Shown: piece by piece, positions 5,661-20,885 of the stretch
Layout: every line of letters starts with the position of its first letter
Position numbering within the stretch: position 1 is the stretch's first letter
Origin: Rhodospirillaceae bacterium
GTDB lineage: Bacteria; Pseudomonadota; Alphaproteobacteria; Rhodospirillales; Rhodospirillaceae
Assembly (NCBI GenBank): GCA_965229355.1
Contig: OZ245869.1
Span: 2,078,318 to 2,142,317, forward strand
Direction: 5' to 3'
DNA: 64,000 nucleotides
The notes under the pieces: model-generated
The model's database searches: none
What the model was told of the DNA's origin: nothing
The model's input: only the letters and a program-made list of their open reading frames with translations
Program-made: the position numbers and the translations under genes

Positions 5661-6359
5661 ATGAATGCGCACTACCGAGCACAAGGAGTTAGGGCAGAAG
5701 GGCCGACGCCTGTTCCTCTGATAACGCCCGTTCGCATGTTGGGTCTGAACCCAACGACGGCTTCGCGCCGGGGTGTGTTTCAGAGCCGGAAGGTCGACGC
5801 GAGCCTCCATCATGAGAGTGGCTTAGAGAAAAGTGCGTTCATGCGCTTTGAGGCCGACCCGCGGGTAAAATCCTACTGCCCACAACCTTTCACCTTGCGA
5901 TACTTTGAGGACGGTCAAGCAGCGTCCTCAACGCCTGACATCCTGGTGGAGACAGCGACTGGCAAGGTAACCGTCGAAGTAAAACCGCTTAGTAAGCTGT
6001 GTCTGCCTGACGTTGCGCGCAAAATTGCAGCCACGGCACATCTGCTCCGCCAACGCGGCGAAAAATATATCGTTCTCACAGAACGTGAAATCTATTCCCA
6101 ACCGGCCCATGAAAACTCGTTGCTCGTCGCGCGCTATCGTTGGTGGCCGCTAGATCCGGACGCACGCGAAAAAGTGCTGAGCTACTGCCAGGATTTCGAA
6201 CAGCTTCCGGCAAAGAACTTACTTTCATTCATGTCGTTCCTTGGGAATGACGCGCCGCACGTACTATTGACGATGATGGCCCAAGACTACTTCGACTTCG
6301 ACATTTCGATGTCGTTGGATATTGCGCTCACCCTACGCTTGAAGCAGAGCGCGAAATGA
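5661..6359 (+). CDS. tnsA: TnsA-like transposition endonuclease
   Basis: Restriction-endonuclease-like triad ESGLE ... TPDILVE ... VEVKP. Its stop overlaps the tnsB start (ATGA). Confidence 0.85.
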   Translation: MNAHYRAQGVRAEGPTPVPLITPVRMLGLNPTTASRRGVFQSRKVDASLHHESGLEKSAFMRFEADPRVKSYCPQPFTLRYFEDGQAASSTPDILVETATGKVTVEVKPLSKLCLPDVARKIAATAHLLRQRGEKYIVLTEREIYSQPAHENSLLVARYRWWPLDPDAREKVLSYCQDFEQLPAKNLLSFMSFLGNDAPHVLLTMMAQDYFDFDISMSLDIALTLRLKQSAK

Positions 6360-8428
6360 ATAAGCCACTTTCCCCATTTCGCCTCACGCCCGGCCAAACC
6401 GTAATTTTCCGCGGCAAGGAGTACAGAGTATTTGGAAAAACGAGAGCCGGCTGGGCGCTCACGGGCGATGGCATTCCAGCTGTTGAGATCGCCGATACAG
6501 AGCTATTGGAACTGCTGGCTGCGCGCGAAATAAGCTTTATCGCCAACACTGCGGTTCTCAAGACGGCGCATGGTGTTGTGGAGGGCACTCAGTGTATCGC
6601 TGTCCAAGATGAGGCGTCATGGAAGGAAGCCTCTCTTCGCGTCGAGTATGTCTTGATGCTCGAAGCGACTGCTCGCGGATTTCGCACCGGTCATCGTTTC
6701 CAACAGGAAATCGACGACCTCGCTTTAAAGCTCGGAGACAAAGATCCGCCTAAGCCTCGGACTGTACGCGAATGGGCAAGGACGTATCGGAAAGGCTGCC
6801 GCGCGCAGGACGCACTTGTAAAGCAATCGGCTAAGGTCAGCCTCCGCCGCAAACGCCGCGCAGACGCCGCTGTTGATGCCGCCGTGCACAAGTATTTCGG
6901 CGTTTACTTGAAAACGCCTAATTCCGTCCGCGGCATTGCGATCCGTGATGCTCAGCGAGAACTGGAACAGGCCAACGCGACTTGGGTTCCATGTCCCAAG
7001 TATTTTTATCGCCGTTTCGACGAGCTCGAAGGCTTTGGGCCGACGACCACGAAATTTGGAAAGCACACGGCTCGTCGCATGCGGCGCCATACGCTCAATA
7101 GCATCACAGCGTCCCGACCGTTGGAACTGGTGCTCCTGGATTCAACTACCCTTGATGTGTTCGCCGCGTACGGAAAGAAGGGAAAGAAGCGTCCTTTTTT
7201 AACTTTGGTCATTGATGTCTATTCCCGTTTCCCTATCGGCTATTACCTCGGCTTTCGTGACCCGAGCAGTTGGACATCCATCGAAGCGCTGAAGTGCGCG
7301 ATATTGCCTAAGGATTGGGTTCAAAAACATTTCCCCGAATTAGGCCCCTGGTTAGCCCAAGGCATGATGGAAGGTGTGGGCGCCGACAACGGTCGCGAGA
7401 ATTTGGCCGTCTTCGTTGATGGCTGCAACTCACTTGCCATCGACTACTACAGAACGCCTGTGAAAACGCCTTGGGCGAACGGCATTGTCGAAAGGCTTAT
7501 CGGTCGCTGCAATCAACTGCTCCAGAAACTCCCTGGCAGCGTGGGATCTGATCCAGCCCTTATCTATGAAAAAGGCGGCATGCGCGACGACTGCTTAACC
7601 CTTAAGCAGATTGAACGTGAGCTACTAAGAATCATTATTGAAGAGATGCAGAACGCTCAACACACGACGCTCGGTGATAATCCAGGCCGTGTTTGGCTTG
7701 AGGGCGTTGAGCGATTCAAGGTTCGCCCGCCGTGCAATATTGAAAAGCTGGACATGCTCACCGGCGAGCAGATGCGTCGCTCTGCGTCACCGAATGGCAT
7801 CAAATATGATGGCATTCGTTACAACGGTGTCGCCTTGGAAGCACTGCGATTGCGCGATATTCGGCCTCGTCATCCTGATGAAACGGATCGTCCAAAATAC
7901 ACGATCATGGTCTACGAGAACGACATCACGCACATCAAAGTGTTTAATGAGGTCGACAAACACTTCTATACAATTCCCGCGATTGAGCCCGATCTGTACG
8001 ACGGACTTTCGCGCGGTGAGCATCAACTCATTCGCTCACGAGCGCTGAAGCACGCAAAAAAACGGCACCCTGGCTCAGAGTATCGAGGCGTGCATTCTCG
8101 CGACGATTATCTCCGCGCCAAGAAAGAGATTCTTTCGATTCCAGATGAAATTGTGAGCGTCGCGCATCGCGAAGTCATGAGGGCGCGCCCAACGCGCTTG
8201 ACCGAACCACCATCGCAATCCGTCGACACCACTCACCTTCTTGCCGGCGAGGCATCGTACGTCCAATCGAGCATCGACATTTCGAACATAAGTTCGTGCC
8301 CACCTATCGACATGTCGTCGCAACAGACGGACGTGGCCGCTCCCAAGCCTGCCAAGAAGTCCAAGGCCCCAGAGGCCGACCCCACACCCATATCCGCAGA
8401 TCAGTTCACGACCCTCGACTCAGAATAA
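6356..8428 (+). CDS. tnsB: TnsB-like DDE transposase (Mu/retroviral-integrase fold)
   Basis: 690 aa. DDE candidates are LLDSTTLDV, GADNGREN and ANGIVERL. It sits between tnsA and an AAA+ gene. Confidence 0.85.
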   Translation: MNKPLSPFRLTPGQTVIFRGKEYRVFGKTRAGWALTGDGIPAVEIADTELLELLAAREISFIANTAVLKTAHGVVEGTQCIAVQDEASWKEASLRVEYVLMLEATARGFRTGHRFQQEIDDLALKLGDKDPPKPRTVREWARTYRKGCRAQDALVKQSAKVSLRRKRRADAAVDAAVHKYFGVYLKTPNSVRGIAIRDAQRELEQANATWVPCPKYFYRRFDELEGFGPTTTKFGKHTARRMRRHTLNSITASRPLELVLLDSTTLDVFAAYGKKGKKRPFLTLVIDVYSRFPIGYYLGFRDPSSWTSIEALKCAILPKDWVQKHFPELGPWLAQGMMEGVGADNGRENLAVFVDGCNSLAIDYYRTPVKTPWANGIVERLIGRCNQLLQKLPGSVGSDPALIYEKGGMRDDCLTLKQIERELLRIIIEEMQNAQHTTLGDNPGRVWLEGVERFKVRPPCNIEKLDMLTGEQMRRSASPNGIKYDGIRYNGVALEALRLRDIRPRHPDETDRPKYTIMVYENDITHIKVFNEVDKHFYTIPAIEPDLYDGLSRGEHQLIRSRALKHAKKRHPGSEYRGVHSRDDYLRAKKEILSIPDEIVSVAHREVMRARPTRLTEPPSQSVDTTHLLAGEASYVQSSIDISNISSCPPIDMSSQQTDVAAPKPAKKSKAPEADPTPISADQFTTLDSE

Positions 8429-8436
8429 GGCCAGCC

Positions 8437-9306
8437 ATGTTTGAGCACACTGAAATCCTCCGCAAGATCCGCGACCTCAAGACCAAACGCGTCAAGTATC
8501 CGCAATATGTTCAGGCGTGTAAGCGCTTGAGTGATTTTATCACCCTGTCGGAATGTGGGGACGCGACCTTGCTTATGGGCGAAAGCGGCGTCGGCAAAAC
8601 TGTAACAGCAGAAACGGTCTACGACGCCTGCAAGCAAGTGTATGTATCCGATGATCCAAAGCACATGCCGGTAGTGAAATGTCGCCTTCCATCTTCGACC
8701 GGAACTAAAAGTTTGCTTGAGGTGGTTCTGGAGGCCGTGAAGTATCCATTCATCACAAGTGCTACGAAGGAGACGGTGCTAAGCCGCATTGTGCGAGAAG
8801 CTTACGCCGAGCGTGGTGTACGCGTGCTGTTTATCGATGAAATGCAGCGTGCCAAGCACAGCGACAAACGGACAAGAATTCAAGAGGTCGCAAACGCATT
8901 TACCTCCCTTATTGATGAACTCGGTATCGCGGTCGTGATGGTTGGCACTGAGGATATGCAAAATTTCACGCAGCAGTTCGAGCCATTCCGACGCCGCGCA
9001 CTCAAGAGAGTCGTTCTTAGACCATTCGATATGGATACATCCGCCGGCCGCCAGGATGTTCGCAACTTCGTTGGTACTCTTGCTCAGCATTTGCCCGCCC
9101 CCATTGATGGGGCTCTGGTTCAAGAGGAAGGGTTAACGTTTCTCGAAAAAACTACGTCGGGAAAGGTGGGCGTGATTAATGAGCTATTGCGCATCGCTGC
9201 GGCCGAAGAGGTGCGTGTATGCGACGGGGTCCCCAACATCATCTCGTTTGCCCGCATCCGTGAAGCCGCGGATGGCATGGATGTTTCACGCACTCTTGCC
9301 AATTAA
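8437..9306 (+). CDS. tnsC: TnsC-like AAA+ ATPase
   Basis: Walker A GESGVGKT and Walker B LFIDEMQ. The ATG at 8437 lies 8 nt after the tnsB stop, and the longer ORF start at 8296 overlaps tnsB. Confidence 0.8.
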   Translation: MFEHTEILRKIRDLKTKRVKYPQYVQACKRLSDFITLSECGDATLLMGESGVGKTVTAETVYDACKQVYVSDDPKHMPVVKCRLPSSTGTKSLLEVVLEAVKYPFITSATKETVLSRIVREAYAERGVRVLFIDEMQRAKHSDKRTRIQEVANAFTSLIDELGIAVVMVGTEDMQNFTQQFEPFRRRALKRVVLRPFDMDTSAGRQDVRNFVGTLAQHLPAPIDGALVQEEGLTFLEKTTSGKVGVINELLRIAAAEEVRVCDGVPNIISFARIREAADGMDVSRTLAN

Positions 9307-9316
9307 ACGTCCGAGT

Positions 9317-11029
9317 ATGAACTTTGTAGTCCACCCCGTTATCGCGCAACTACAGCCTTTTCCCGATGAGTCATTATTAGGATTTGGCCTGCGGATTGCC
9401 GAGGCCAATTGGGCACCGACTGGCCTCCGCGCTATTGCGATGGCCATTCACACTGCCAAAGAATCACGCAGTGATTACTTGTCCCTTGTGTCGAATATTG
9501 ACGCGCTGAGCCAGCTTACCCAGATCCCAGTGGAAGACCTCCAAGCCATGGCGTTTTGGCATTTGCCGCGGGACGAGTGGCCGGCCAGTTTTAATATCGG
9601 CCGTCACGGGGGCACCGTTTCGACCACTTCACTATATCGCGGCTTCTCTCGCATCTGCGTTGAATGCTTGAAGGAGCAACCTTACACGCGGCGCCTATGG
9701 GATTTGAAGTTCTACCAAGCCTGTCACATTCATCACTGCAAGCTTATCTCTAACTGTCATGGTTGCTCGAGATCGCTGAGCTGGCATCGTCCAACGCTTA
9801 TGCGTTGTAAAGCGTGCCATGCTGATATTCGAGGGGCGTGTTCACAGGCGGCGACCCAGGCAGAAGTGAACTTTGCGGGGTTCATCGCGGGTTGTGTCAA
9901 AGGGAGTGGTTCTGATAGCGCTCAACATGTTAGCATCGCGCCGGAATTTAAAGACATCTCGATTGGCGATCTCGTGAATGTGCTTGGGTTTCTAGCTGGC
10001 TATGCCAAGGACGGTTGTCCCATTGGCGTGCGCGGCATGGTGAGTTCAGGGAACGAAGAACTTCTCGAAAACTTGCGGGAGTGCGAGCAATTATTCGCGG
10101 ATTGGCCTAACGCGCTTTACCGAATGATTGACGCGAATATGCATTCCAGTAACGACTGGTTGCCTCCAGAGAAGAAATTTCCTCACATCTATCGAGCTAT
10201 TGCCAGGACGCACAAGTCAGCCTACCCGTTGACGCGTTTGCGGCCTCTTATGGTGCGTTATCTTGCTGAGCGCCACGGATCATATGCTGCGCAATGCGGG
10301 TCGCGGCATGGTGCAATTGAAGAGGCGGCACGCATAGCTGGATACATTACTCTTGGAGAGGCAGCCAGGTTACAGCAAACGAGTGTTGGGCTTATCAAGC
10401 GCGCCGCCCCAATAGTGGGCGTCACCATTCATCACGGTGATCGCATGGCTACCGCCCGGATCTTAAAGGAGGATCTAAAGTTACTGAGCGAAGAGCTTTG
10501 GTTTTCTCGCAGATCAAGGCTGCCAACAGGAGCGTATGGCGACTGGGATGCTTTGCCTAAAGTGGAGCCCGCTGAATGTCAGGCATCAACGAAAGTGCGC
10601 CAATCTGACCCAATAATTCCTCGTCAGCCGCAGCCACACCGCGATGTAATTCGTCGCGAGCGCGTAGACATGAAGGGCATTGGTCTTTCGCTTGGCGTGT
10701 CCCCAGCGACCGCCGCGCGTTTGCGACGTGATAGCCTGTTCGGTGCTTATAATCCCAACCGGCCGACCACGATCGCTGACGTGCTCGGATACATGGATGC
10801 GCTGGAACGGGGCTGTACGCCGTCTGAAGACCCACTGTTGGTCCCGTTAATGATATTGGCAGAGAAAAACTCGGTTTACTGGCGGGTGGGGCTTCGGACA
10901 GCGCTTAATCTTATAAAATCCGGCAAGCTTCTCGTACGGGGCGTGGACACGCGGGCCACCGGCTTAAATCGCATACTTCTGTCCGACGCGGACTTGCGTC
11001 AGCTTAACGATGACTGTGAGCGAGGATAA
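9317..11029 (+). CDS. tniQ: TniQ/TnsD-like target-selection protein
   Basis: The N-terminus (PFPDESLLGFGLRIAEANW) is typical of TniQ, and a Cys/His cluster (CVECL...CHIHHC...CHGC...C..C) follows. 570 aa from the ATG at 9317. Confidence 0.75.
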   Translation: MNFVVHPVIAQLQPFPDESLLGFGLRIAEANWAPTGLRAIAMAIHTAKESRSDYLSLVSNIDALSQLTQIPVEDLQAMAFWHLPRDEWPASFNIGRHGGTVSTTSLYRGFSRICVECLKEQPYTRRLWDLKFYQACHIHHCKLISNCHGCSRSLSWHRPTLMRCKACHADIRGACSQAATQAEVNFAGFIAGCVKGSGSDSAQHVSIAPEFKDISIGDLVNVLGFLAGYAKDGCPIGVRGMVSSGNEELLENLRECEQLFADWPNALYRMIDANMHSSNDWLPPEKKFPHIYRAIARTHKSAYPLTRLRPLMVRYLAERHGSYAAQCGSRHGAIEEAARIAGYITLGEAARLQQTSVGLIKRAAPIVGVTIHHGDRMATARILKEDLKLLSEELWFSRRSRLPTGAYGDWDALPKVEPAECQASTKVRQSDPIIPRQPQPHRDVIRRERVDMKGIGLSLGVSPATAARLRRDSLFGAYNPNRPTTIADVLGYMDALERGCTPSEDPLLVPLMILAEKNSVYWRVGLRTALNLIKSGKLLVRGVDTRATGLNRILLSDADLRQLNDDCERG

Positions 11030-11217: not shown

Positions 11218-11481
11218 ATGCCCGAACCTAAATTCACTCAGATCGGTATAGTCTTATCAGCTGGCGATGCCGAAGCTCTCAAGAGAGCCACTCTTCATTT
11301 GCGTGAGCAGCTGGGGCCAATGTTCAATATGACAGATGGCCCAATTTGCGAAGCGGGCGTGTACGAGGTGAACTGTTCATTCGGATTGTTGCCATCATCG
11401 AAACGGCCTGATCTTGTTCTCGTGCAGGGCGGCCGAACTCGGGGTCAACGCTCTCATGTCCCCGATGCGAATTCCAAGTAG
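11218..11481 (+). CDS. hypothetical small protein
   Basis: 87-aa ORF ending 8 nt before the next gene, directly after the O3 palindrome. Confidence 0.45.
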   Translation: MPEPKFTQIGIVLSAGDAEALKRATLHLREQLGPMFNMTDGPICEAGVYEVNCSFGLLPSSKRPDLVLVQGGRTRGQRSHVPDANSK

Positions 11482-11489
11482 GGGGCTCT

Positions 11490-11963
11490 ATGAACCACGA
11501 GTCCATCGAAATGCTTACGGGGTACATAGACGCACTCAGCTTCACGACGATTGCTCGTGTGCCTGATCCGCCGGTAACTTTTGGGATACCGACCGCAGAG
11601 CTTCGAAAAAAACTCACAATCGACGTGACTGAGTTTAACCTCAAAAAGAACCGCTATCGCTTCAAAGGCCAAATTAAAAACTGGACGTTCTGGACATTCA
11701 CTGACAAAGCCGCGCCCGAGCAAACCAGCATCCACTTGACAGGTACGCTTACGAGTCAAAGGGGTCTCCATCCATATCTGACGACCAGCCAGGTGCTGGA
11801 AATTGCGAGCGACTTAAGTGGTGTGATCACCAAGAGTGGAAGCCTCTACGAGCTTTCGAATGAGCGCGGCGAGCTCAATAACGACGAGTTCGTTCACCTG
11901 ATCTGTGTCCTTAACTCATGGGGACTTGGGGCGGATTTAAATTTGCCACCCCTTCATTACTAG
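11490..11963 (+). CDS. hypothetical protein, paralog of 4394..4873
   Basis: 157 aa. By eye it is about 40-45% identical to the 4394 product over the C-terminal 75 or so residues. Confidence 0.6.
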   Translation: MNHESIEMLTGYIDALSFTTIARVPDPPVTFGIPTAELRKKLTIDVTEFNLKKNRYRFKGQIKNWTFWTFTDKAAPEQTSIHLTGTLTSQRGLHPYLTTSQVLEIASDLSGVITKSGSLYELSNERGELNNDEFVHLICVLNSWGLGADLNLPPLHY

Positions 11964-12004: not shown

Positions 12005-12532
12005 GTGATGGTCGACTACATCTGCATCGACATCGAAGCGTCCGGGCTTCACAAGAATTGCTATCCGATTGAGGTGGCATTGGCTCTGCCGATAACGGCC
12101 CTTGAAAAGGCCTGGCTCATTGCGCCAACACCGGAGTGGCGTGACAATGGTATCTGGGAAGAGCAGGCGGAAGCTTTGCATGGCATCACTCGTGCTGACC
12201 TTTTTCGCAATGGCGTCCTACCGGAAGTCGTCGTTGGCGAGCTCATAGTTTGCATCGGCGAAAAACAGCTGGTGTCAGATTGTCCGAGTGCGGATGGAGG
12301 ATGGCTTCAGCAGCTTTTCGCCGCTGCGGACGTACATCGAGAATGGAGGATCCATGATCTCGACGAAGTTGCGCGCCGCATTACGTGGGGTAGGGGTGTG
12401 CATCATGAAGCAGCCTTATCGGCAGCCCGGACCTATGCTCAGACAGTCTGCCCTAAAATGCACCGCGCACTTCCAGACGCACGTCACAATGCTGCGATAC
12501 TTCAACACCTTAACGTGGCGCCGAGCTGTTAG
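12005..12532 (+). CDS. DEDDh (DnaQ-like) 3'-5' exonuclease
   Basis: Exo I motif CIDIEASG, Exo II region LVSDCPSADGGWL, Exo III motif HRALPDARHNA. The start is GTG 12005 or ATG 12008. Confidence 0.75.
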   Translation: MMVDYICIDIEASGLHKNCYPIEVALALPITALEKAWLIAPTPEWRDNGIWEEQAEALHGITRADLFRNGVLPEVVVGELIVCIGEKQLVSDCPSADGGWLQQLFAAADVHREWRIHDLDEVARRITWGRGVHHEAALSAARTYAQTVCPKMHRALPDARHNAAILQHLNVAPSC

Positions 12533-12864: not shown

Positions 12865-13425
12865 ATGATAGGCGAGAGCGACTATTGGAAAAAACCTCTC
12901 CTCACGGGGGCGAGGTTCATCCGGAAACATATGGATGTCGAAGATATTACCCCTTCGCAGTTCGCCCGGATTGAACGCGAAATTCTCATCGGCTTCTACT
13001 CGATTCGAAAATTGTTCGAGGCGACGGCAAAAGTCAGTCCTGAAACGCGCGATCTGAAAATCCAGCTAAAATTCTATCCGAAGCGTGCTGATCAGCCGCC
13101 TGTGGACTGGTTCAATCGGGACAAGTTCTGGGAGCTATACGACCTTGAAGTCGCTGGGGCTGAGCAGCGCGATCTGCTCTACGCCGCGCACCGGATGGTC
13201 CACAGCTTCGTCTTGCTGCTGTCGGGCGACGACGCCGGACATGGCGCATTTTTCACGAGTGATCGCGACAAGGAAGCACGCTTAAATTTCGTAAGCACGA
13301 GTGAGATTGTTCGCGTTTTTGAAGCCGTTGGAACCGACTATCCATCAGGCCTCAACGCATGGCGCGATGAGGCGACCGGCGAAATGAAGTGGGTGGTGCC
13401 GCCGTCGCCAGAGAGTGTGCGCTAG
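12865..13425 (+). CDS. hypothetical protein (gene 1 of a coupled three-gene operon)
   Basis: 186 aa. Its TAG stop overlaps the GTG start of the next gene (TAGTG). Confidence 0.55.
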   Translation: MIGESDYWKKPLLTGARFIRKHMDVEDITPSQFARIEREILIGFYSIRKLFEATAKVSPETRDLKIQLKFYPKRADQPPVDWFNRDKFWELYDLEVAGAEQRDLLYAAHRMVHSFVLLLSGDDAGHGAFFTSDRDKEARLNFVSTSEIVRVFEAVGTDYPSGLNAWRDEATGEMKWVVPPSPESVR

Positions 13426-13793
13426 TGAGAACGTCGATTGAGCTGGAAATCGCTGGGGTCTCCTTATCCTATGCCAAAAATTATATCGGGGTTGATTTTG
13501 GCTTCCTGTTTCAGGATGGCGACGAGACGCGACGTAGATCAGACGCCATCGACTATGAGTATTATGAGGATCACCCGGATGAGATCGCAGACCTAGAAGA
13601 GAGCGAGGCCGCTTTTGCCAGACCTCTTTCGCGCGTGCTGCCGCGTCTATCGCTCCTCGGATCCACGATACAAACCGCGCGTGCTGAATATGAGGCGGTG
13701 ATCGCGGAAGCTCTAGAAATGAGTTCTGGCGAAGGGCGCGAACTTGGCCTGCTGTCGTTCGATGAATTTTGCTTGCTTGCCGCTATCCGTTGA
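13425..13793 (+). CDS. hypothetical acidic protein (gene 2 of the coupled operon)
   Basis: 122 aa from GTG 13425. Its stop overlaps the next start (TGATG). The ORF-track start at 13389 would overlap gene 1. Confidence 0.5.
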   Translation: MRTSIELEIAGVSLSYAKNYIGVDFGFLFQDGDETRRRSDAIDYEYYEDHPDEIADLEESEAAFARPLSRVLPRLSLLGSTIQTARAEYEAVIAEALEMSSGEGRELGLLSFDEFCLLAAIR

Positions 13794-14689
13794 TGAGCCT
13801 CAGGGGCGGAGAGGAGTTTCACGACAAAGAAAAAGCTAAGGGCCGGCTTGCTGTAGAAGGTGACTTCGCGCGTCTGCCGTGGACCGATAACTCGGACAGC
13901 TTCTGGTCAGAGCGAAGCTACTTCGGCGCGAAGCTCACGTTGCTGAGTGCAGAGTCTATGCTTCAGGTGTTTAGCCTCAACGCCGAAAACCTGACGGCCG
14001 AGGTGACGTGGGAGTTCGGCACTCTCGTCAGTAGCGGTTGGGCCAGCCGCTCTGAGTTTCAGCCCGGCGCAAGGCGCGTTCAAAAAGTGTTGATCGCGAC
14101 CGAGGGAGCGTCCGACGCTCGGATTATCAAGCGTGCGCTTGAGGTCCTCCGCCCTGACGTCGCCGACTTTTTCAACTTTGTTGATGTGGATGAGCGCCAT
14201 CACTTTTGGGGTACCGGCAATCTCGTAAAATTTGCTGAAGGGCTTCTGCGCATCGACATCCAGAATATGGTTCTGTTCGTGTTTGATAATGACGCAGAGG
14301 GTGTTGATGCTTATCGCAAACTCGAAAATCTGAATCTCCCCGGCAACATGCGCTCGATGCTCTTGCCGAACCTAGACGAGTTTCGCAATTTTCGAGCGCT
14401 TGGGCCCGAAGGCGTTAGCATTTCCGACATAAACGGACGAGCCGCAGCAATCGAGTGCTATCTCGATCTTGAATTGCCGAACAATGCACCCGCGCAAGTG
14501 ATCTGGAGCAACTACAAGAAGGATATCGACGCGTGGCACGGAGCCTTGGAGTTCAAGGATTCCTATCAGCGTCATTTCTACGACCAGACTGACGGTACGC
14601 TTCGGAGTGGGCGTTATGACACTACGAAGCTCTTGAAAATGTTGGACGCAGTAATAGCGCAGGCATCTCTGGTGTCGCCTGTGGTGTAG
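13793..14689 (+). CDS. Toprim-domain protein (OLD/AriB/DUF4435-like nuclease candidate)
   Basis: VLIATEGASDARI (Toprim Glu) followed about 70 aa later by LFVFDNDAEG (DxD). The N-terminal 100 or so residues are unassigned. Confidence 0.6.
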   Translation: MSLRGGEEFHDKEKAKGRLAVEGDFARLPWTDNSDSFWSERSYFGAKLTLLSAESMLQVFSLNAENLTAEVTWEFGTLVSSGWASRSEFQPGARRVQKVLIATEGASDARIIKRALEVLRPDVADFFNFVDVDERHHFWGTGNLVKFAEGLLRIDIQNMVLFVFDNDAEGVDAYRKLENLNLPGNMRSMLLPNLDEFRNFRALGPEGVSISDINGRAAAIECYLDLELPNNAPAQVIWSNYKKDIDAWHGALEFKDSYQRHFYDQTDGTLRSGRYDTTKLLKMLDAVIAQASLVSPVV

Positions 14690-14953: not shown

Positions 14954-15199
14954 TCAGCCTGGCGAACGCTTCGGATCTGCTTTTCGCGGAAACGTGCGCT
15001 CTTCTTGGATTCTGCCATTTTGCTTTTGAATTTTGACAGATCCGCCATCAGTGCCAATAGCACGCTTTAACGCTCCACCAGCCGTTGCGTCGGACTTGTT
15101 TCCATATGACTTCACGGTTTTATCCGTTCGGTCATTCGTCAGATCCCACGTAGTCTTCTTCTCGTTGTACTCAAGAGTGAATTTCGGAAGTTTGGTCAC
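14954..15199 (-). CDS. small basic protein, DUF2188-like
   Basis: 81 aa. The pattern TWDL...KSYGNKSDA...GGSVKIQKQNGRIQEERTF resembles DUF2188. It lies 17 nt downstream of 15217..16017. Confidence 0.4.
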   Translation of the reverse strand: MTKLPKFTLEYNEKKTTWDLTNDRTDKTVKSYGNKSDATAGGALKRAIGTDGGSVKIQKQNGRIQEERTFPRKADPKRSPG

Positions 15200-15216
15200 G
15201 ATGTTACTCCTGATTA

Positions 15217-16017
15217 TTATAGAGACGGCTTAGCTAAGACACGTGAGCGTTCAACGAATGCTATCGAGATGACCTGTTCGCTGAGTTCTTTAACTGTGGG
15301 GATGCCCAACTCTGCCGACAAAAATAGAAGCCGCGCTTGAACTTCTTCCGGCACCTTCTTTAGCGTTACTCGCTTCGGAGATTGGCCCCTAAAAGCTTTT
15401 TGCGCTTCTTGATGCGCGTTGTTCAAAATAGTCCGAACATCATCGACTGAACGCTTGGCGCGCATGTGGTAGATTTCACGCGATGCGATATCCAGCGCTT
15501 GCTTCAGTCCGCTTTGCTCACTGTCATCGCCGGCTAAAGCCGTGCATAAGCCGTCGATCAAGTCAGCTGCGATCTGACCAGATAGTTTGGTTGCTTTAAT
15601 GTCTTGGACTATTCTGTCAGAGGATTGTTTTGCCGCCTCCGCTCGAAGGTCTGCCAGCCAAGAATCTCGTTGGAAATCTTTAGCACTCGGGACGACAACA
15701 TCGAGTGCACTTATGAAATTGATCATAGCTTCCTCCGCTGTGATTCCGGTGCCTCGCACCCCAAAGGGGCCTACGTCTGCGCAGTAAGCGATGTGCGTTC
15801 GTGTTTCCTTATGAAAGAACTGCATCACTTGCGCCGTCGCCAACGAATTTATCTCGGCGATTATGGCTTCCTCATCTCGCGTTACGTGAGGCGTCGCGAC
15901 TGCATCGTCATCAGCCGGCTGCTCGGTCCGATTCAACGCTTCGCGCCTTGCACGAACGAGCTGATCGCCCTTCACGCCCCGAGCTAAGAAACCATCCTTT
16001 TTGAAGCCTAAAATCAT
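15217..16017 (-). CDS. hypothetical protein with a HicB-like (UPF0150) segment
   Basis: HIAYCADVGPFGVRGTGITAEEAMINFISAL resembles the HicB antitoxin fold motif. The rest is helical and unassigned. Confidence 0.45.
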   Translation of the reverse strand: MILGFKKDGFLARGVKGDQLVRARREALNRTEQPADDDAVATPHVTRDEEAIIAEINSLATAQVMQFFHKETRTHIAYCADVGPFGVRGTGITAEEAMINFISALDVVVPSAKDFQRDSWLADLRAEAAKQSSDRIVQDIKATKLSGQIAADLIDGLCTALAGDDSEQSGLKQALDIASREIYHMRAKRSVDDVRTILNNAHQEAQKAFRGQSPKRVTLKKVPEEVQARLLFLSAELGIPTVKELSEQVISIAFVERSRVLAKPSL

Positions 16018-16132: not shown

Positions 16133-17161
16133 ATGATTGTTCGAGAGTTAACCATTCCAGGCCTTCCGGTCGCGGTACATCGCGCCATCCAGGCGAGTGG
16201 TCAACAACTCCACATCTCGAACTTGCCGGCGCTGGCGCACAGCTTATTACCAACCATAACTTCGAGACTGGATGCAAATGTGCAAGCCCAGTTGAAGCAA
16301 TCGATAAATGCCGCTGTTCCAAAGCTGGTCGTGAAGAATGCTTTCGCGATCGTCGACAATGCGCTCGGCCGTACGCCTGATGGCTTCATCAAACATCCAA
16401 GCGATCCGACGTGGTTGACGGCCGCAGTCTCCGCTTTGACGGTAATGAGCATAGCAGGATTGCAAGCGACCTCATTCGCTGGCGAAAATAAAGGTGAATT
16501 GTTCGTGCACTTGGTTCCGGAGAACACATCCGCGACCGGCCGAAACGCCGAGCAATCAACAGCATTTATGACGGGACATACGGACGCATTGCCGTTTCCA
16601 TTTCCGGCTGAATTTGATCCAGCCAACGTAAGTCTACCACCACCAGCTCCAGATTTCGTCGTTTTGGCGGCACTTCGCAATCCAGGTGACGTTCCTACAA
16701 CTGTGTCGCCTCTCGATGTTTTGCGCACGCACATGGCTGATGATCCTTCGTTCAATACGAAGGTTTCAGATGCACTCTTCCAACGGCACTTCGGTTTTAA
16801 GAGCCAGAGCAGTTGGGACATGGAGTATTATCTGCCGTCTGCACCGATTTTGATGGACGACCAACGCGGGACACTGATCCGGTTCAGTATCGGCGGTACT
16901 CAAGTTCTGCCGGGCGCGCCGGAAGAGGCGGTGACAGCGTACCATCTGCTTTCCGAGGCTTTGAAGCAAAATAGGCAGCAAGTTGTCTTGAAGCCGGGCG
17001 ATATCATGTTGATCAACAACAGGACTAGCCTGCACGGTCGCGAACGGGTGAGCTATTTGCCAGAGGGTAACTCTCGGTGGTTGCTGCGAACATATGGATA
17101 TTACTCATCCACACCACGTCGCATCATAAGTCCATATTGGACGAAGGCCGAGCCTTGTTAA
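16133..17161 (+). CDS. Fe(II)/2-oxoglutarate-dependent oxygenase, clavaminate-synthase/TauD-like
   Basis: The facial triad candidates are GHTDALPF (HxD) and NNRTSLHGRE (distal His). RWLLRTY follows, as in VioC/AsnO-type amino-acid hydroxylases. Confidence 0.65.
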   Translation: MIVRELTIPGLPVAVHRAIQASGQQLHISNLPALAHSLLPTITSRLDANVQAQLKQSINAAVPKLVVKNAFAIVDNALGRTPDGFIKHPSDPTWLTAAVSALTVMSIAGLQATSFAGENKGELFVHLVPENTSATGRNAEQSTAFMTGHTDALPFPFPAEFDPANVSLPPPAPDFVVLAALRNPGDVPTTVSPLDVLRTHMADDPSFNTKVSDALFQRHFGFKSQSSWDMEYYLPSAPILMDDQRGTLIRFSIGGTQVLPGAPEEAVTAYHLLSEALKQNRQQVVLKPGDIMLINNRTSLHGRERVSYLPEGNSRWLLRTYGYYSSTPRRIISPYWTKAEPC

Positions 17162-17679
17162 TCAGAGAAAAGAGATAGCAACCTAATCGTCATCGCTTGC
17201 ATGCTGACTTCGTAAAGTGAGGCCAACTTCCTCAGGTCTTCCTCACTGGTCATATCGATGTCCTGAGCGGCGACATCTTGCTTTAGCCACGCCGCCGGCA
17301 TGAGAAGATTAGCTGCAAACGCATTGGCCTCGCGTTCATCGAGGTGTTCCGCGGTCGTGGAGCGTATATCGCGAAGGTTGACACGAAACTCTTGGTCAAC
17401 GTGAACCTCTTCGCCGTCATGAAGCATCAAGTGCCCCAACTCGTGCGCAATCGTGAAGCGCTGACGCAAGTCATTGTGCAGAGAATTCACGACGATGACA
17501 TTGCCTGACTCAGCACGAAACAGAATTCCCGAAATGTCCTTTTCGAGTTCCATGCGCTTGATGGCGACATTATTCGCTTCAGCAATTGCCTCAACGTCGA
17601 CCGGAGGCTTGATCTGATCGGCAAGCAGTTCATCAACGCGTCGGCGAATACGGGTGTAACCAATCCGTACTCGGATCAC
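17158..17679 (-). CDS. ImmA/IrrE-family zinc metallopeptidase (CapP-like)
   Basis: HEXXH motif IAHELGHLMLH. It overlaps the upstream XRE gene by 4 nt. Confidence 0.8.
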   Translation of the reverse strand: MIRVRIGYTRIRRRVDELLADQIKPPVDVEAIAEANNVAIKRMELEKDISGILFRAESGNVIVVNSLHNDLRQRFTIAHELGHLMLHDGEEVHVDQEFRVNLRDIRSTTAEHLDEREANAFAANLLMPAAWLKQDVAAQDIDMTSEEDLRKLASLYEVSMQAMTIRLLSLFSD

Positions 17680-17978
17680 GACCCGCTCGCTTGTTCTGAC
17701 TTAATCGTGTCGATTACCTTCAGCACGTCCTCACGTCCCGCAAGTTTGTCAGCTGCTTTTTCTTCTCGCGCTTCGACCAACTGCGACGGATTTGCGTTCA
17801 GCGCTTTTGCGATGTCGACCATTTGATGGAGCAGCACGCGTTGGCGGCCGCTTTCAATATTTGTGATTGATGCGCGAGACAGAGACACGCGATTCGCGAG
17901 TTCTTCTTGGGTGATTTTTCGATTTTCGCGCAGCTCCTTCACCCGATTTCCGAATAGTTTATAAACGCGTTTTTCCAT
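17676..17978 (-). CDS. XRE-family helix-turn-helix repressor (CapH-like)
   Basis: 100 aa with the helix-turn-helix region ITQEELANRVSLSRASITNIESGRQ. It is divergent from the ubiquitin-like operon. Confidence 0.8.
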   Translation of the reverse strand: MEKRVYKLFGNRVKELRENRKITQEELANRVSLSRASITNIESGRQRVLLHQMVDIAKALNANPSQLVEAREEKAADKLAGREDVLKVIDTIKSEQASGS

Positions 17979-19577: not shown

Positions 19578-20885
19578 ATGAATCATCCCCTCTTCAGCGA
19601 CCGCCCTGCTCAAGCGCTCATGGCGCGAGACCAGGATCTCGACTACGCATCCGCGCGCCTTAAGTTGGAAACGGCATCCGTGGTATTGACCGTGGATGAT
19701 GAGATGTCGGACTGGCATCAGGCAGCGCTGATTGCGTTCGTCGCCTGCGGATCGCGGATGTTCCAGGGCGGCGTATTTTTACAAGATTTTCCTGACGCGG
19801 CCACGCGCGTTGGCCATCAGCAGCGCCTCTCGATTACTCGTGTACTGATCCGAGGTGGCGCCAGGCCAGGGCAGCGCCCACCTGGGGCTCTTCGTATTCA
19901 CTTTGGATCTAAGGGAAGTGCCGACCTTTACGTGCAGTGTGAAGGTTGGACCGCGCATGTCGGACCCATTCCCATCGAAACGACAGGTCACTCAAACAGT
20001 AACGTGGTCGTCGGCGCGTTCGCGGCGGCGCTCGGCGCGACGGCTGCATTTCGTCAACTGATCTTCAATGACGTTCGAGCCTCTAGATTTCAGCAGTCGC
20101 ACAAGTTGATGACCTCTGATGAAGTGGATCAAAGTGGAACAATTACAGCCTTACCAAAGCATCTGTGGTTGCTAGGGGCTGGCAACTTGGGCCAGGCGGT
20201 GCTGATGATTCTCGGTCTGTTGCCGTGGAAGGATTGCGAAGACTTCCACTTGCACATCAACGACGGGGACATCGTTGGGCCAGAAAATGTAATGGTCCAA
20301 GTGCTCACACAATCGAATTGGATTGGCTCCAAAAAAGCGCGTGTTGTTGCGAGTTGGGCGGAGGCACAGGGCTTTAAAACGAGTATCGATGAGCGCTTAT
20401 TTGGCTCATATACCCATCCCATGCCATACGAGCCACGCGTAGCTCTGGTATGCGTCGATAACGTGGACGCACGACGCGCTGCCTCCATGGCCGGGTTTGA
20501 CTTGGTGATTGATGGCGGTCTTGGCGCCACAGCTGCTGATCTGTTTGATTTACGTGTTCATGCGTTCCCGAGTGACCTTGATATTGACCGCATCTGGCCA
20601 TTGGACACTACCTCCGCTGTCAGCGAACTTCCTGCCAACCTGAAAGCTATGGTTGGACAAGGGCAACTTGATGACTGCGGCGCAACAACGATTGCGGGCA
20701 AAAGCGTGGGCGTACCTTCGACCGCAATGGCGTGCGCGGCGTTGCAAGTCGCACAGTTATTGTCAGTTCTAATGACGGGACGTTGCGCCAAGACGGTTGA
20801 TGCAAGCCTTGCCGACATAAAGCGGGCACACGCTGTTATGATGGCCGACGATACGCGCGTTCATTTGGCGCGGTTGAGTTGTTAG
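19578..20885 (+). CDS. bilD: E1-like adenylating enzyme, ThiF/MoeB fold (BilD-like)
   Basis: Rossmann motif LLGAGNLGQAVLMILG. 435 aa from the ATG at 19578, 1 nt after the JAB stop codon. Confidence 0.75.
   Translation: MNHPLFSDRPAQALMARDQDLDYASARLKLETASVVLTVDDEMSDWHQAALIAFVACGSRMFQGGVFLQDFPDAATRVGHQQRLSITRVLIRGGARPGQRPPGALRIHFGSKGSADLYVQCEGWTAHVGPIPIETTGHSNSNVVVGAFAAALGATAAFRQLIFNDVRASRFQQSHKLMTSDEVDQSGTITALPKHLWLLGAGNLGQAVLMILGLLPWKDCEDFHLHINDGDIVGPENVMVQVLTQSNWIGSKKARVVASWAEAQGFKTSIDERLFGSYTHPMPYEPRVALVCVDNVDARRAASMAGFDLVIDGGLGATAADLFDLRVHAFPSDLDIDRIWPLDTTSAVSELPANLKAMVGQGQLDDCGATTIAGKSVGVPSTAMACAALQVAQLLSVLMTGRCAKTVDASLADIKRAHAVMMADDTRVHLARLSC

What the first reader, a model, noticed from the sequence alone, without database searches (positions are those of the whole stretch)
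12865..14689. Translationally coupled three-gene operon ending in a Toprim-domain protein: candidate uncharacterised defence or toxin module
The three ORFs are chained by overlapping stop and start codons: TAGTG at 13423-13427 and TGATG at 13791-13795. The last protein (298 aa) carries a Toprim signature, VLIATEGASDARI followed by FVFDNDAEG. This is the catalytic module of OLD/Gabija GajA and PARIS AriB-type nucleases. The ABC/AAA ATPase that accompanies Toprim nucleases in those systems is absent here. Instead there are two proteins without recognisable motifs, one of 186 aa and one acidic protein of 122 aa. The operon sits in Tn7 cargo between an exonuclease cassette and the Bil-like locus.
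Basis: partly seen in the sequence, partly recalled or inferred. Interest (0 to 1): 0.7.

Follow-up and report, generated by a model that had tools for sequence, protein, structure and literature searches.

The report
Frameshift-split Toprim nuclease gene with partner
The supposed three-gene operon is really two genes: a small protein of unknown fold, plus one catalogued but untested Toprim nuclease gene of the kind found in defence islands, which a four-base deletion has cut into two reading frames here.

Summary
The three-gene reading does not.

- **ORF2 and ORF3 are one gene.** They match the two halves of a single Pfam domain, PF18871 (HEPN/Toprim N-terminal domain 1). Homologues are almost all single proteins of about 424 aa. 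The split comes from a 4-nt loss in a TTGC tract at 13769-13780. Restoring it gives FDEFCLLACRYPL, which matches the family consensus.
- **The family is catalogued but untested.** It was described by computation in 2013, is large, and is absent from PADLOC. It usually stands alone on plasmids, prophages and islands, next to AbiE, TIR, Shedu, restriction-modification and integrase genes.
- **ORF1 is the new element.** It belongs to an unannotated family with a confident predicted fold that has no structural neighbour. It is translationally coupled to the nuclease gene in 11 loci, including very divergent pairs. It is absent from 77 of 80 species-level loci.
- **This copy may not work.** It could be a recent pseudogene, a tolerated two-chain version or an assembly error. 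The restored protein shows no other decay.

Interest is moderate to low.

The parts
12865..13425 (+). ORF1: a 186-aa protein of an unannotated family, the upstream partner gene.
   Evidence: It has 92 homologue clusters, mostly 183-186 aa, with a conserved N-terminus MI[TG]ES.YWKKPLL. That supports the start at 12865 rather than the 164-aa public gene call. It has no Pfam, NCBIfam, PADLOC or PHROGs match. The AlphaFold2 model has pLDDT 90.8, and Foldseek finds no neighbour in PDB or BFVD. Its stop overlaps the nuclease gene's start by 1 nt here and in L002, L011, L014, L162 and L163.
13425..13781 (+). 5' part of the NTD1-Toprim gene in its original frame (codons 1-119).
   Evidence: It matches PF18871 positions 1-113 of 223, E 1.7e-29. 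It aligns with residues 1 to about 121 of the 424-aa homologues.
13769..13780 (+). Frameshift site: the tract TTGC TTGC TTGC, with one 4-nt unit inferred to be lost.
   Evidence: All 31 homologous loci inspected have five codons, C-x-L-x-[C/R/N], between the aromatic residue and R-[Y/H]-P. The window has 11 nt where 15 are expected. Adding one TTGC gives FDEFCLLACRYPL, which matches the family consensus FCxLACRYPL.
13782..13793 (+). Out-of-frame tail of 'ORF2' (A-I-R-stop). This is not native protein sequence.
   Evidence: Translations, compared with the homologues.
13778..14689 (+). It encodes the second half of PF18871, the Toprim core (TEGASD ... DNDAEG) and a conserved C-terminal region (GPEG ... 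AAIECYLD).
   Evidence: It matches PF18871 positions 144-221, E 3.9e-17. It is 70-81% identical to proteins of 424-430 aa. E230, D291, D293 and K381 are invariant. Family members give weak Toprim matches in Pfam. The top Foldseek hit is the RNase M5 Toprim domain.

Best explanation
The locus is a two-gene cassette carried next to Tn7-type transposition genes.

**Gene 2 (13425-14689).** It belongs to the HEPN/Toprim-NTD1 + Toprim family. This is normally one polypeptide of about 424 aa. It has an N-terminal alpha+beta domain (PF18871), inferred to act as sensor or regulator. It also has a C-terminal Toprim metal-dependent nuclease with an invariant Glu and a DxD motif. The family behaves like a stand-alone abortive-infection or defence effector on mobile elements. 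By inference, a trigger sensed through NTD1 releases the Toprim nuclease to cut nucleic acid, either DNA or, as in AriB and RNase M5, an RNA. That would arrest the cell or the invader.

**The split.** In this window a 4-nt deletion in a TTGC tract cuts the gene at the boundary between the two halves of NTD1. This produces the apparent 'ORF2' and 'ORF3'. This copy is most likely a very recent pseudogene, or at best a two-chain version.

**Gene 1 (ORF1, 186 aa).** It is a lineage-restricted accessory protein with an undescribed fold. It is translated from the same message, with a conserved 1-nt stop/start overlap. By inference it modulates the nuclease as an inhibitor, antitoxin or co-sensor. 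It is not essential to the family.

**Shown versus inferred.** Shown: the gene structure, the frameshift, family membership, the Toprim motifs, the ORF1 linkage and the genomic contexts. Inferred: nuclease activity, substrate, trigger, defence role and the role of ORF1.
For: **One gene, not two**
- ORF2 and ORF3 match PF18871 positions 1-113 and 144-221 respectively.
- 1805 homologues were found. Nearly all of the 120 listed are 421-446 aa and 67-81% identical to ORF3.
- There are 1389 representatives at the 50% clustering level; those listed in full length are mostly about 400-450 aa.
- In all 80 species-representative loci, the junction region lies inside one uninterrupted ORF.
- The codon-level comparison shows 4 nt missing.
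- The restored 422-aa protein keeps 103 of 104 columns that are invariant in 30 intact homologues.

**Toprim**
- E230, G231, D291, D293 and G296 are invariant in 59 members that go down to about 28% identity.
- Of those 59 members, 18 hit Toprim_2 (best E 1e-4), 14 hit Toprim, 14 hit Toprim_4 and 7 hit OLD-like_TOPRIM.
- The best PDB fold matches are the RNase M5 Toprim domain, 6tg6 and 6z2b, at probability 0.93-0.94.
- The family profile gives a weak match to the T7 primase DxD region.

**Defence or mobile-element context**
- Immediate neighbours in the 80 genomes include AbiEii, Abi_C, TIR_2, Shedu SduA_N, MmeI, AAA_15, integrases, resolvases and T4SS coupling proteins. No partner is constant.
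- The gene is on 55 plasmid records and 7 IMG/VR contigs, and sits next to phage tail genes in L172.
- Here it follows TnsA, a TnsB-like gene, TniB and TniQ.
- The published computational prediction places it as an Abi-like fusion (PMC3710099).

**ORF1 linkage**
- ORF1 lies upstream and overlapping in the window, L002, L011, L014, L082-L085, L162 and L163.
- The pairing persists where the nuclease has diverged to 25% identity: the Gluconobacter plasmid locus L169, and L085.
Against: - No experiment exists for any family member.
- The family is absent from PADLOC.
- The Toprim evidence is individually weak: Foldseek E about 0.06, Pfam E of 1e-4 or worse, and a model with pLDDT of only 75.9.
- ORF1 is missing from 77 of 80 loci. 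Distant ORF1 relatives sit in other contexts or alone, so its functional tie to the nuclease may be loose.
- Pseudogene status is not proven. Both fragments are otherwise intact, and their conservation ratio equals that of intact pairs.
- Similar breaks recur near the same site in other lineages.
Confidence: 0.75

Rival explanations
1. This is a genuine functional fission, and so a working three-gene operon. The break at the sub-domain boundary is tolerated or selected, and the N-terminal 119-residue piece acts as a separate regulatory or antitoxin-like chain. The C-terminal Toprim piece is translated by coupling at TGATG.
For: - Independent breaks occur at the same Ala|Cys codon pair in L162 (-1 nt) and L164 (-1 nt). 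Others lie within about 15 codons: L163, P0368, the in-frame stop in L168, and the truncation in L165.
- A start codon overlaps or abuts the new stop in the window, L162 and L164.
- Both window fragments keep all catalytic and invariant residues, and show no relaxed conservation.
Against: - All 80 species-level loci are uninterrupted at this site.
- The indels differ from case to case, as random mutations would.
- L162 also has a frameshift in ORF1, which points to decay.
- The cases were found by searching with the window's own fragments, and one search returned only short proteins, so ascertainment favours this site.
- Given that bias, three hits in one 2-codon bin are not significant by my estimate (about 0.3).
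Confidence: 0.13
2. The frameshift is an assembly or consensus error, and the organism carries an intact two-gene cassette.
For: - The source is one metagenome-assembled circular contig, ctg13296_50x_c, seen in only one assembly.
- The missing bases lie in a short tandem tetranucleotide tract.
- The rest of the gene is flawless.
Against: - A 4-nt unit loss at about 50x coverage is not the usual homopolymer-type error.
- Comparable breaks occur in unrelated assemblies made with other technologies, namely NCBI isolate or MAG records and Logan short-read contigs.
- This cannot be tested here.
Confidence: 0.12
3. This is a classical type II toxin-antitoxin pair, with ORF1 as the antitoxin that neutralises a constitutively toxic Toprim nuclease. 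Loss of the toxin by frameshift would then be ordinary toxin-antitoxin decay.
For: - A small upstream gene has a conserved 1-nt stop/start overlap with a nuclease gene.
- The setting is plasmids and mobile elements.
- Toxin genes often pick up inactivating mutations.
Against: - 77 of 80 loci carry the nuclease gene with no ORF1 and no other constant neighbour. Close relatives differ in this (L003 versus L002), so the nuclease is not lethal on its own.
- ORF1 has no recognised DNA-binding or antitoxin domain.
- ORF1 is better conserved than its partner in divergent pairs, which is unusual for antitoxins.
Confidence: 0.15
4. The Toprim protein is a housekeeping RNA-processing or replication enzyme (RNase M5-like or primase-like), not a conflict-system effector.
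For: The top structural neighbours are the RNase M5 Toprim domain and the T7 primase.
Against: - Its distribution is patchy, on plasmids, prophages, Tn7-type cargo and variable islands, with no conserved neighbourhood.
- The similarity is limited to the roughly 100-residue Toprim core.
- There are frequent broken copies.
Confidence: 0.03

Closest known systems
HEPN/Toprim-NTD1 + Toprim proteins (Pfam PF18871 HEPN_Toprim_N; NCBI name 'HEPN/Toprim-associated domain-containing protein'; prototype Aeromonas veronii HMPREF1167_01188; Anantharaman et al. 2013, PMC3710099)
   Same: The domain order and length match once the frame is restored (422 aa). Identity to family members is 60-81%. The same invariant Glu, DxD and C-terminal motifs are present, and so is the same mobile-element or defence-island setting.
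   Different: Here the gene is cut in two by a 4-nt deletion. It is also preceded by a coupled ORF1 gene that the 2013 description does not mention and that most members lack.
OLD-family Toprim nucleases of defence systems (P2 Old, Gabija GajA, PARIS AriB)
   Same: Both have a Toprim catalytic core with Glu and DxD and a defence-type context. By analogy the target may be DNA or tRNA; AriB is reported to cleave tRNA (PMC12409363 abstract).
   Different: There is no ABC/AAA ATPase, fused or adjacent. The window's three proteins give no PADLOC hit, and only 1 of 59 family members gives a marginal AriAB match at E 0.002. The OLD-like_TOPRIM Pfam model is hit by only 7 of 59 members, at E of 0.014 or worse. 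The N-terminal partner domain is PF18871 instead.
RNase M5 Toprim domain (PDB 6tg6, 6z2b)
   Same: It is the best structural match to the predicted catalytic core, at probability 0.93-0.94 and TM about 0.5 on the target.
   Different: The match covers only about 110 residues at 19-21% identity and E about 0.06-0.09. RNase M5 is a housekeeping 5S rRNA maturase with a different C-terminal domain and partner, ribosomal protein uL18 (from my own knowledge).
Two-gene toxin-antitoxin and abortive-infection modules with overlapping genes (for example AbiE, type II toxin-antitoxin pairs)
   Same: A small upstream gene is translationally coupled to a predicted nuclease on mobile DNA.
   Different: The partner is dispensable across most of the family. 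ORF1 has no known antitoxin or DNA-binding domain and has a fold with no known neighbour.

Membership tests
HEPN/Toprim-NTD1 + Toprim family (PF18871) | An N-terminal PF18871 domain scoring above Pfam's gathering score | tested here: met
   ORF2 scores 103.8 bits (model positions 1-113) and ORF3 scores 63.4 bits (positions 144-221), against a cut-off of 25.
HEPN/Toprim-NTD1 + Toprim family (PF18871) | A C-terminal Toprim core with a conserved Glu and a DxD motif | tested here: met
   TEGASD and DNDAEG are present. These columns are invariant in 59 diverse members. Weak Toprim Pfam hits occur in up to 18 of 59 members. The top Foldseek hit is the RNase M5 Toprim domain.
HEPN/Toprim-NTD1 + Toprim family (PF18871) | A single polypeptide of about 400-440 aa | tested here: not met
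   The gene is split into 122-aa and 298-aa ORFs by a 4-nt deletion. This is a lesion in a family member, not a different family: the restored sequence is 422 aa and keeps 103 of 104 invariant columns.
OLD / Gabija GajA / PARIS AriB class | An ABC-type ATPase fused to, or encoded next to, the Toprim nuclease | tested here: not met
   There is no ATPase domain in ORF1-3 or in the adjacent genes.
OLD / Gabija GajA / PARIS AriB class | A match to the profile models for these systems | tested here: not met
   The window proteins give no PADLOC hits. One of 59 family members hits AriAB marginally at E 0.002.
Type II toxin-antitoxin module | The toxin is always accompanied by its cognate antitoxin gene | tested here: not met
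   ORF1 is absent from 77 of 80 species-representative loci, and nothing else takes its place consistently.
Type II toxin-antitoxin module | The antitoxin binds and neutralises the toxin | not testable with these tools
   This needs co-expression, pull-down or a complex prediction.
Anti-phage defence system (generic) | Protection against phage, or abortive-infection toxicity on trigger | not testable with these tools
   There is only contextual support and a published prediction.
Tn7-like transposon cargo | A location between mapped transposon ends, downstream of the tnsABC/tniQ genes | tested here: inconclusive
   The TnsA, TnsB-like, TniB and TniQ genes lie at about 5661-11029 in the same orientation. 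No terminal repeats were found.

The most novel reading that the evidence does not exclude
The NTD1-Toprim gene may be recurrently and tolerably split at the boundary between its two NTD1 sub-domains. The N-terminal roughly 120 residues would then act as a detachable inhibitor or sensor chain, a toxin-antitoxin-like pair created by gene fission.
Probability: 0.1. Interest if true: 0.6.

Novelty: new variant of a known kind. Interest (0 to 1): 0.33.

Why it matters
- **Annotation.** The analysis corrects an attractive but wrong reading. The 'acidic 122-aa protein' and the second stop/start overlap are products of a frameshift. The public record's three gene calls (164, 122 and 298 aa) should be two genes, one of them disrupted.
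- **An untested candidate defence family.** The NTD1-Toprim family is large, with about 1,400 clusters at 50% identity. It is spread over plasmids, prophages and islands, and it is absent from PADLOC. No experimental study turned up in the searched literature. Intact copies exist on Aeromonas, Arcobacter and E. coli plasmids, which makes it a reasonable candidate for a single-gene defence or abortive-infection effector.
- **ORF1.** This conserved, coupled partner of unknown fold has not been described. It could reveal how such nucleases are held in check.
- **Limit.** This particular copy is broken, so the window itself is a poor experimental starting point.

Tried and rejected
**ORF1: searches that found nothing**
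- Sequence profile against PDB: no hits.
- Foldseek against PDB and BFVD: best E 0.14-0.2, TM below 0.35.
- Pfam on 26 members: only SprT-like at E of 0.0035 or worse. I reject this because the first His of the would-be HExxH motif is not conserved; only H113 is invariant.
- PHROGs, NCBIfam and PADLOC: no hits.
- hhalign of the ORF1 family against the nuclease family: no relationship, probability 1%.
- HEPN idea: rejected. There is no conserved Rx4-6H motif, and the predicted fold is alpha/beta rather than a helical bundle.

**The nuclease family**
- Family profile against PDB sequences: only noise plus a weak match to the T7 primase DxD region.

**Constant partners**
- Constant partner for the nuclease: none found.
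- NTD1 or Toprim neighbour for distant ORF1 relatives: none found.

**Other features**
- Tn7 end repeats: not found.
- Promoter and terminator scan: no more sites than in shuffled sequence.
- Programmed ribosomal frameshifting: rejected. The breaks in different lineages are different indels at different bases, and intact homologues need no recoding.

**Literature**
- Searches for PF18871, HEPN Toprim, Toprim-associated and Toprim-NTD1 found only the 2013 paper.
Full report
**1. The observation**

The three ORFs are at the stated coordinates:
- ORF1, 12865-13425, 186 aa.
- ORF2, 13425-13793, 122 aa, with a GTG start.
- ORF3, 13793-14689, 298 aa.

TAGTG lies at 13423-13427 and TGATG at 13791-13795. 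ORF3 contains VLIATEGASDARI and FVFDNDAEG.

The window matches a 4.44-Mb metagenome-assembled contig, ENA ERZ25074234 ctg13296_50x_c. Its public gene calls are 164, 122 and 298 aa. The 186-aa start for ORF1 is the better one, because the first residues, MI[TG]ES.YWKKPLL, are conserved across the family.

**2. ORF2 and ORF3 are one gene**

- **Domain evidence.** Pfam places ORF2 on positions 1-113 and the N-terminus of ORF3 on positions 144-221 of the same 223-position model, PF18871 'HEPN/Toprim N-terminal domain 1' (E 1.7e-29 and 3.9e-17).
- **Homologue length.** ORF3 has 1805 homologues. Nearly all of the 120 listed are single proteins of 421-446 aa, 67-81% identical. Where a source names them, the name is 'HEPN/Toprim-associated domain-containing protein'.
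- **Family size.** An exhaustive search finds 1389 representatives at the 50% clustering level; the full-length ones listed are mostly about 400-450 aa.
- **Other genomes.** In all 80 loci fetched from species-representative genomes, the region homologous to the ORF2/ORF3 junction lies inside one uninterrupted ORF.
- **The lesion.** All 31 loci inspected read F-[ED]-[EDK]-[FY]-[C/S]-x-L-[A/V]-[C/R/N]-R-[Y/H]-P, for example ttt tgc aat ctt gct tgc cgc tat cca. The window reads ttt tgc ttg ctt gc|c gct atc cgt tga. It has 11 nt where 15 are expected.
- **The tract.** The bases at 13769-13780 are TTGC x3. Adding a fourth unit restores FDEFCLLACRYPL, which matches the family consensus FCxLACRYPL.

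So the 'acidic 122-aa protein' is the first half of NTD1 plus a three-residue out-of-frame tail. The TGATG overlap is a by-product of the frameshift.

**3. State of the broken gene**

The restored protein is 422 aa. It keeps 103 of the 104 columns that are invariant among 30 intact homologues. The one exception is Gly2 to Arg, next to the GTG start.

Its ratio of N-part identity to C-part identity against homologues is 0.85. Intact pairs of similar divergence give the same value. There is therefore no decay beyond the indel.

That is compatible with a very recent pseudogene, with a consensus error in the assembly, or with a tolerated two-chain form. I cannot separate these without reads or experiments.

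**4. The Toprim assignment**

No single result is strong, but they agree:
- Across 59 members down to about 28% identity, the invariant columns include T-E230-G and D291-N-D293-x-E-G.
- Scanned individually, 18 of 59 hit Toprim_2 (best E 1e-4), 14 hit Toprim, 14 hit Toprim_4, 7 hit OLD-like_TOPRIM and 2 hit Toprim_3.
- The AlphaFold2 model of the intact homologue P0013 has pLDDT 75.9. Its best PDB matches are the RNase M5 Toprim domain, 6tg6 and 6z2b, at probability 0.93-0.94. T7 primase, a small Toprim protein and a topoisomerase rank lower.
- A conserved C-terminal block, GPEG...DINGRAAAIECYLD...W...K381, follows the DxD motif. It may add acidic ligands, but that is inference.

**5. What the family looks like elsewhere**

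- **No constant neighbour.** Nothing recurs next to the gene.
- **Immediate neighbours.** In the 80 genomes they include:
  - AbiEii (5 loci), Abi_C, TIR_2, Shedu SduA_N, MmeI, AAA_15 and RhuM;
  - integrases, resolvases, T4SS coupling proteins and a phage tail tube protein.
- **Mobile carriers.** The gene is on 55 plasmid records, including Aeromonas, Arcobacter, Sinorhizobium, Klebsiella and E. coli plasmids. It is on 7 IMG/VR contigs. It sits next to a tape-measure gene in an Aeromonas plasmid.
- **Literature.** The only paper found is Anantharaman et al. 2013 (PMC3710099). It defined HEPN/Toprim-NTD1 on an Aeromonas veronii protein and noted its fusion to two HEPN families, to Toprim and to an Mrr-type REase. 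It argued for an Abi-like role.
- **PADLOC.** There is no model for the family. A few members graze the RT-Toprim and AriAB models at E about 1e-3.

**6. ORF1**

- **Family and fold.**
  - There are 92 homologue clusters, mostly 183-186 aa.
  - No family-library match was found.
  - The model is confident, at pLDDT 90.8. It shows two long N-terminal helices followed by a mixed sheet.
  - It has no structural neighbour in PDB or BFVD.
- **Conserved residues.** E37, Y45, K49, N84, Y92 and H113-S114 are invariant. R48 and D133-R-D135 are nearly invariant. This suggests a defined binding or active site.
- **Linkage to the nuclease gene.** ORF1 sits directly upstream of an NTD1-Toprim gene, with the stop overlapping the start, in the window, L002, L011, L014, L082-L085, L162 and L163. 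In L085 and on a Gluconobacter plasmid, ORF1 is about 50% identical while the nuclease is only about 25% identical. Many further contigs carry both families.
- **Limits of that linkage.**
  - Only 3 of 80 species-level loci have ORF1.
  - On a tree of the nuclease, ORF1-bearing genes form one clade plus scattered relatives whose sisters lack it.
  - ORF1 relatives at 35-45% identity have no NTD1 or Toprim neighbour.
  - Some of these relatives lie beside AbiJ_NTD4, DUF7014/Abi_C, a weak RiboL-PSP-HEPN match or AAA_15 proteins, and some appear to be solitary.

ORF1 is thus a real but dispensable accessory.

**7. How it most likely works**

The gene structure and contexts are shown. The rest is inferred.

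I read the module as a single-chain sensor-plus-nuclease effector of the abortive-infection type. NTD1 would hold the Toprim nuclease off until a trigger appears, and ORF1 would tune that switch in one lineage.

The substrate is unknown. Toprim nucleases in defence cut DNA (GajA, from my own knowledge) or tRNA (AriB, PMC12409363 abstract). The nearest fold, RNase M5, is an RNase.

In this window the effector is probably inactive.

**8. An unexplained pattern**

Other broken copies have their lesions close to the same place:
- L162 and L164 each lack 1 nt in the same Ala|Cys codon pair.
- L163 and P0368 have -1 shifts 13-16 codons upstream.
- L168 has an in-frame TAA six codons downstream.
- L165-167 are truncated at about codon 110.

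Breaks elsewhere also exist, at about codons 146, 177, 375 and 385.

These cases were found with the window's own fragments as queries, and the ORF2 search returned only short proteins. Ascertainment bias is therefore strong. L162 also has a frameshifted ORF1, which points to decay. I leave this open.

**9. Verdict**

The Toprim and 'no ATPase' points stand.

The three-gene architecture is an artefact of a frameshift in a gene from an already catalogued, experimentally untested family. The only new element is the coupled ORF1 partner of unknown fold.

I rate it a new variant of a known kind, of moderate to low interest.

Noticed in passing
Codons ~106-128 of the NTD1-Toprim gene: window 13769-13781; L162:3980-4007; L163:1105-1168; L164:3345-3393; L168:2410-2460; L165:3300-3405: Independent frameshifts, one nonsense codon and one truncation cluster near the boundary between the two halves of PF18871 in unrelated lineages. 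Three of them fall in the same Ala|Cys codon pair. This could be a tolerated fission point, a hotspot or search bias.
   Followed up: partly
window 5661-11029: A run of Tn7-type transposition genes in the same orientation as the cassette: TnsA-like, a 690-aa TnsB-like protein (only a weak rve match), TniB and TniQ. I could not find terminal repeats or transposon ends, so 'Tn7 cargo' is plausible but unmapped.
   Followed up: partly
window 12931 versus 12865: The public gene call for ORF1 is 164 aa, starting at 12931. The family alignment shows a conserved N-terminus that begins at the ATG at 12865, giving 186 aa.
   Followed up: yes
window 12005-12532: A 175-aa ORF with a DIEASG-type motif and only weak RNase_T / Rv2179c-like matches (E 0.002-0.006). 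The two small ORFs before it, 11218-11481 and 11490-11963, have no family match.
   Followed up: partly
window ~17158-17978 (- strand): A Peptidase_M78 (ImmA/IrrE-type) gene paired with an HTH_3-type repressor gene. This is a typical mobile-element or prophage regulatory switch.
   Followed up: no
window ~19578-20885: A 435-aa gene with a BilD_N match and a faint ThiF match. It is flanked by unannotated genes of 168 and 561 aa.
   Followed up: no
window 14954-16017 (- strand): A DUF2188 protein (81 aa) and an unannotated 266-aa protein are encoded convergently, just downstream of the cassette.
   Followed up: no
L101:3161-5611, also L102 and L103: A distant ORF1 relative (about 41% identity) sits between an AbiJ_NTD4 protein, whose stop abuts its start, and a DUF7014/Abi_C (HEPN-type) protein. 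This suggests the ORF1 family associates with several kinds of Abi-type nuclease genes.
   Followed up: partly
L029:12461-13282: A second, divergent NTD1-Toprim family member lies about 5 kb downstream of the first in Motilimonas cestriensis (E 3.6e-23 against the family profile).
   Followed up: no
L162:2967-3618: In this Logan contig ORF1 is itself split by a frameshift, in addition to the break in the nuclease gene. The whole cassette appears to be decaying there.
   Followed up: partly
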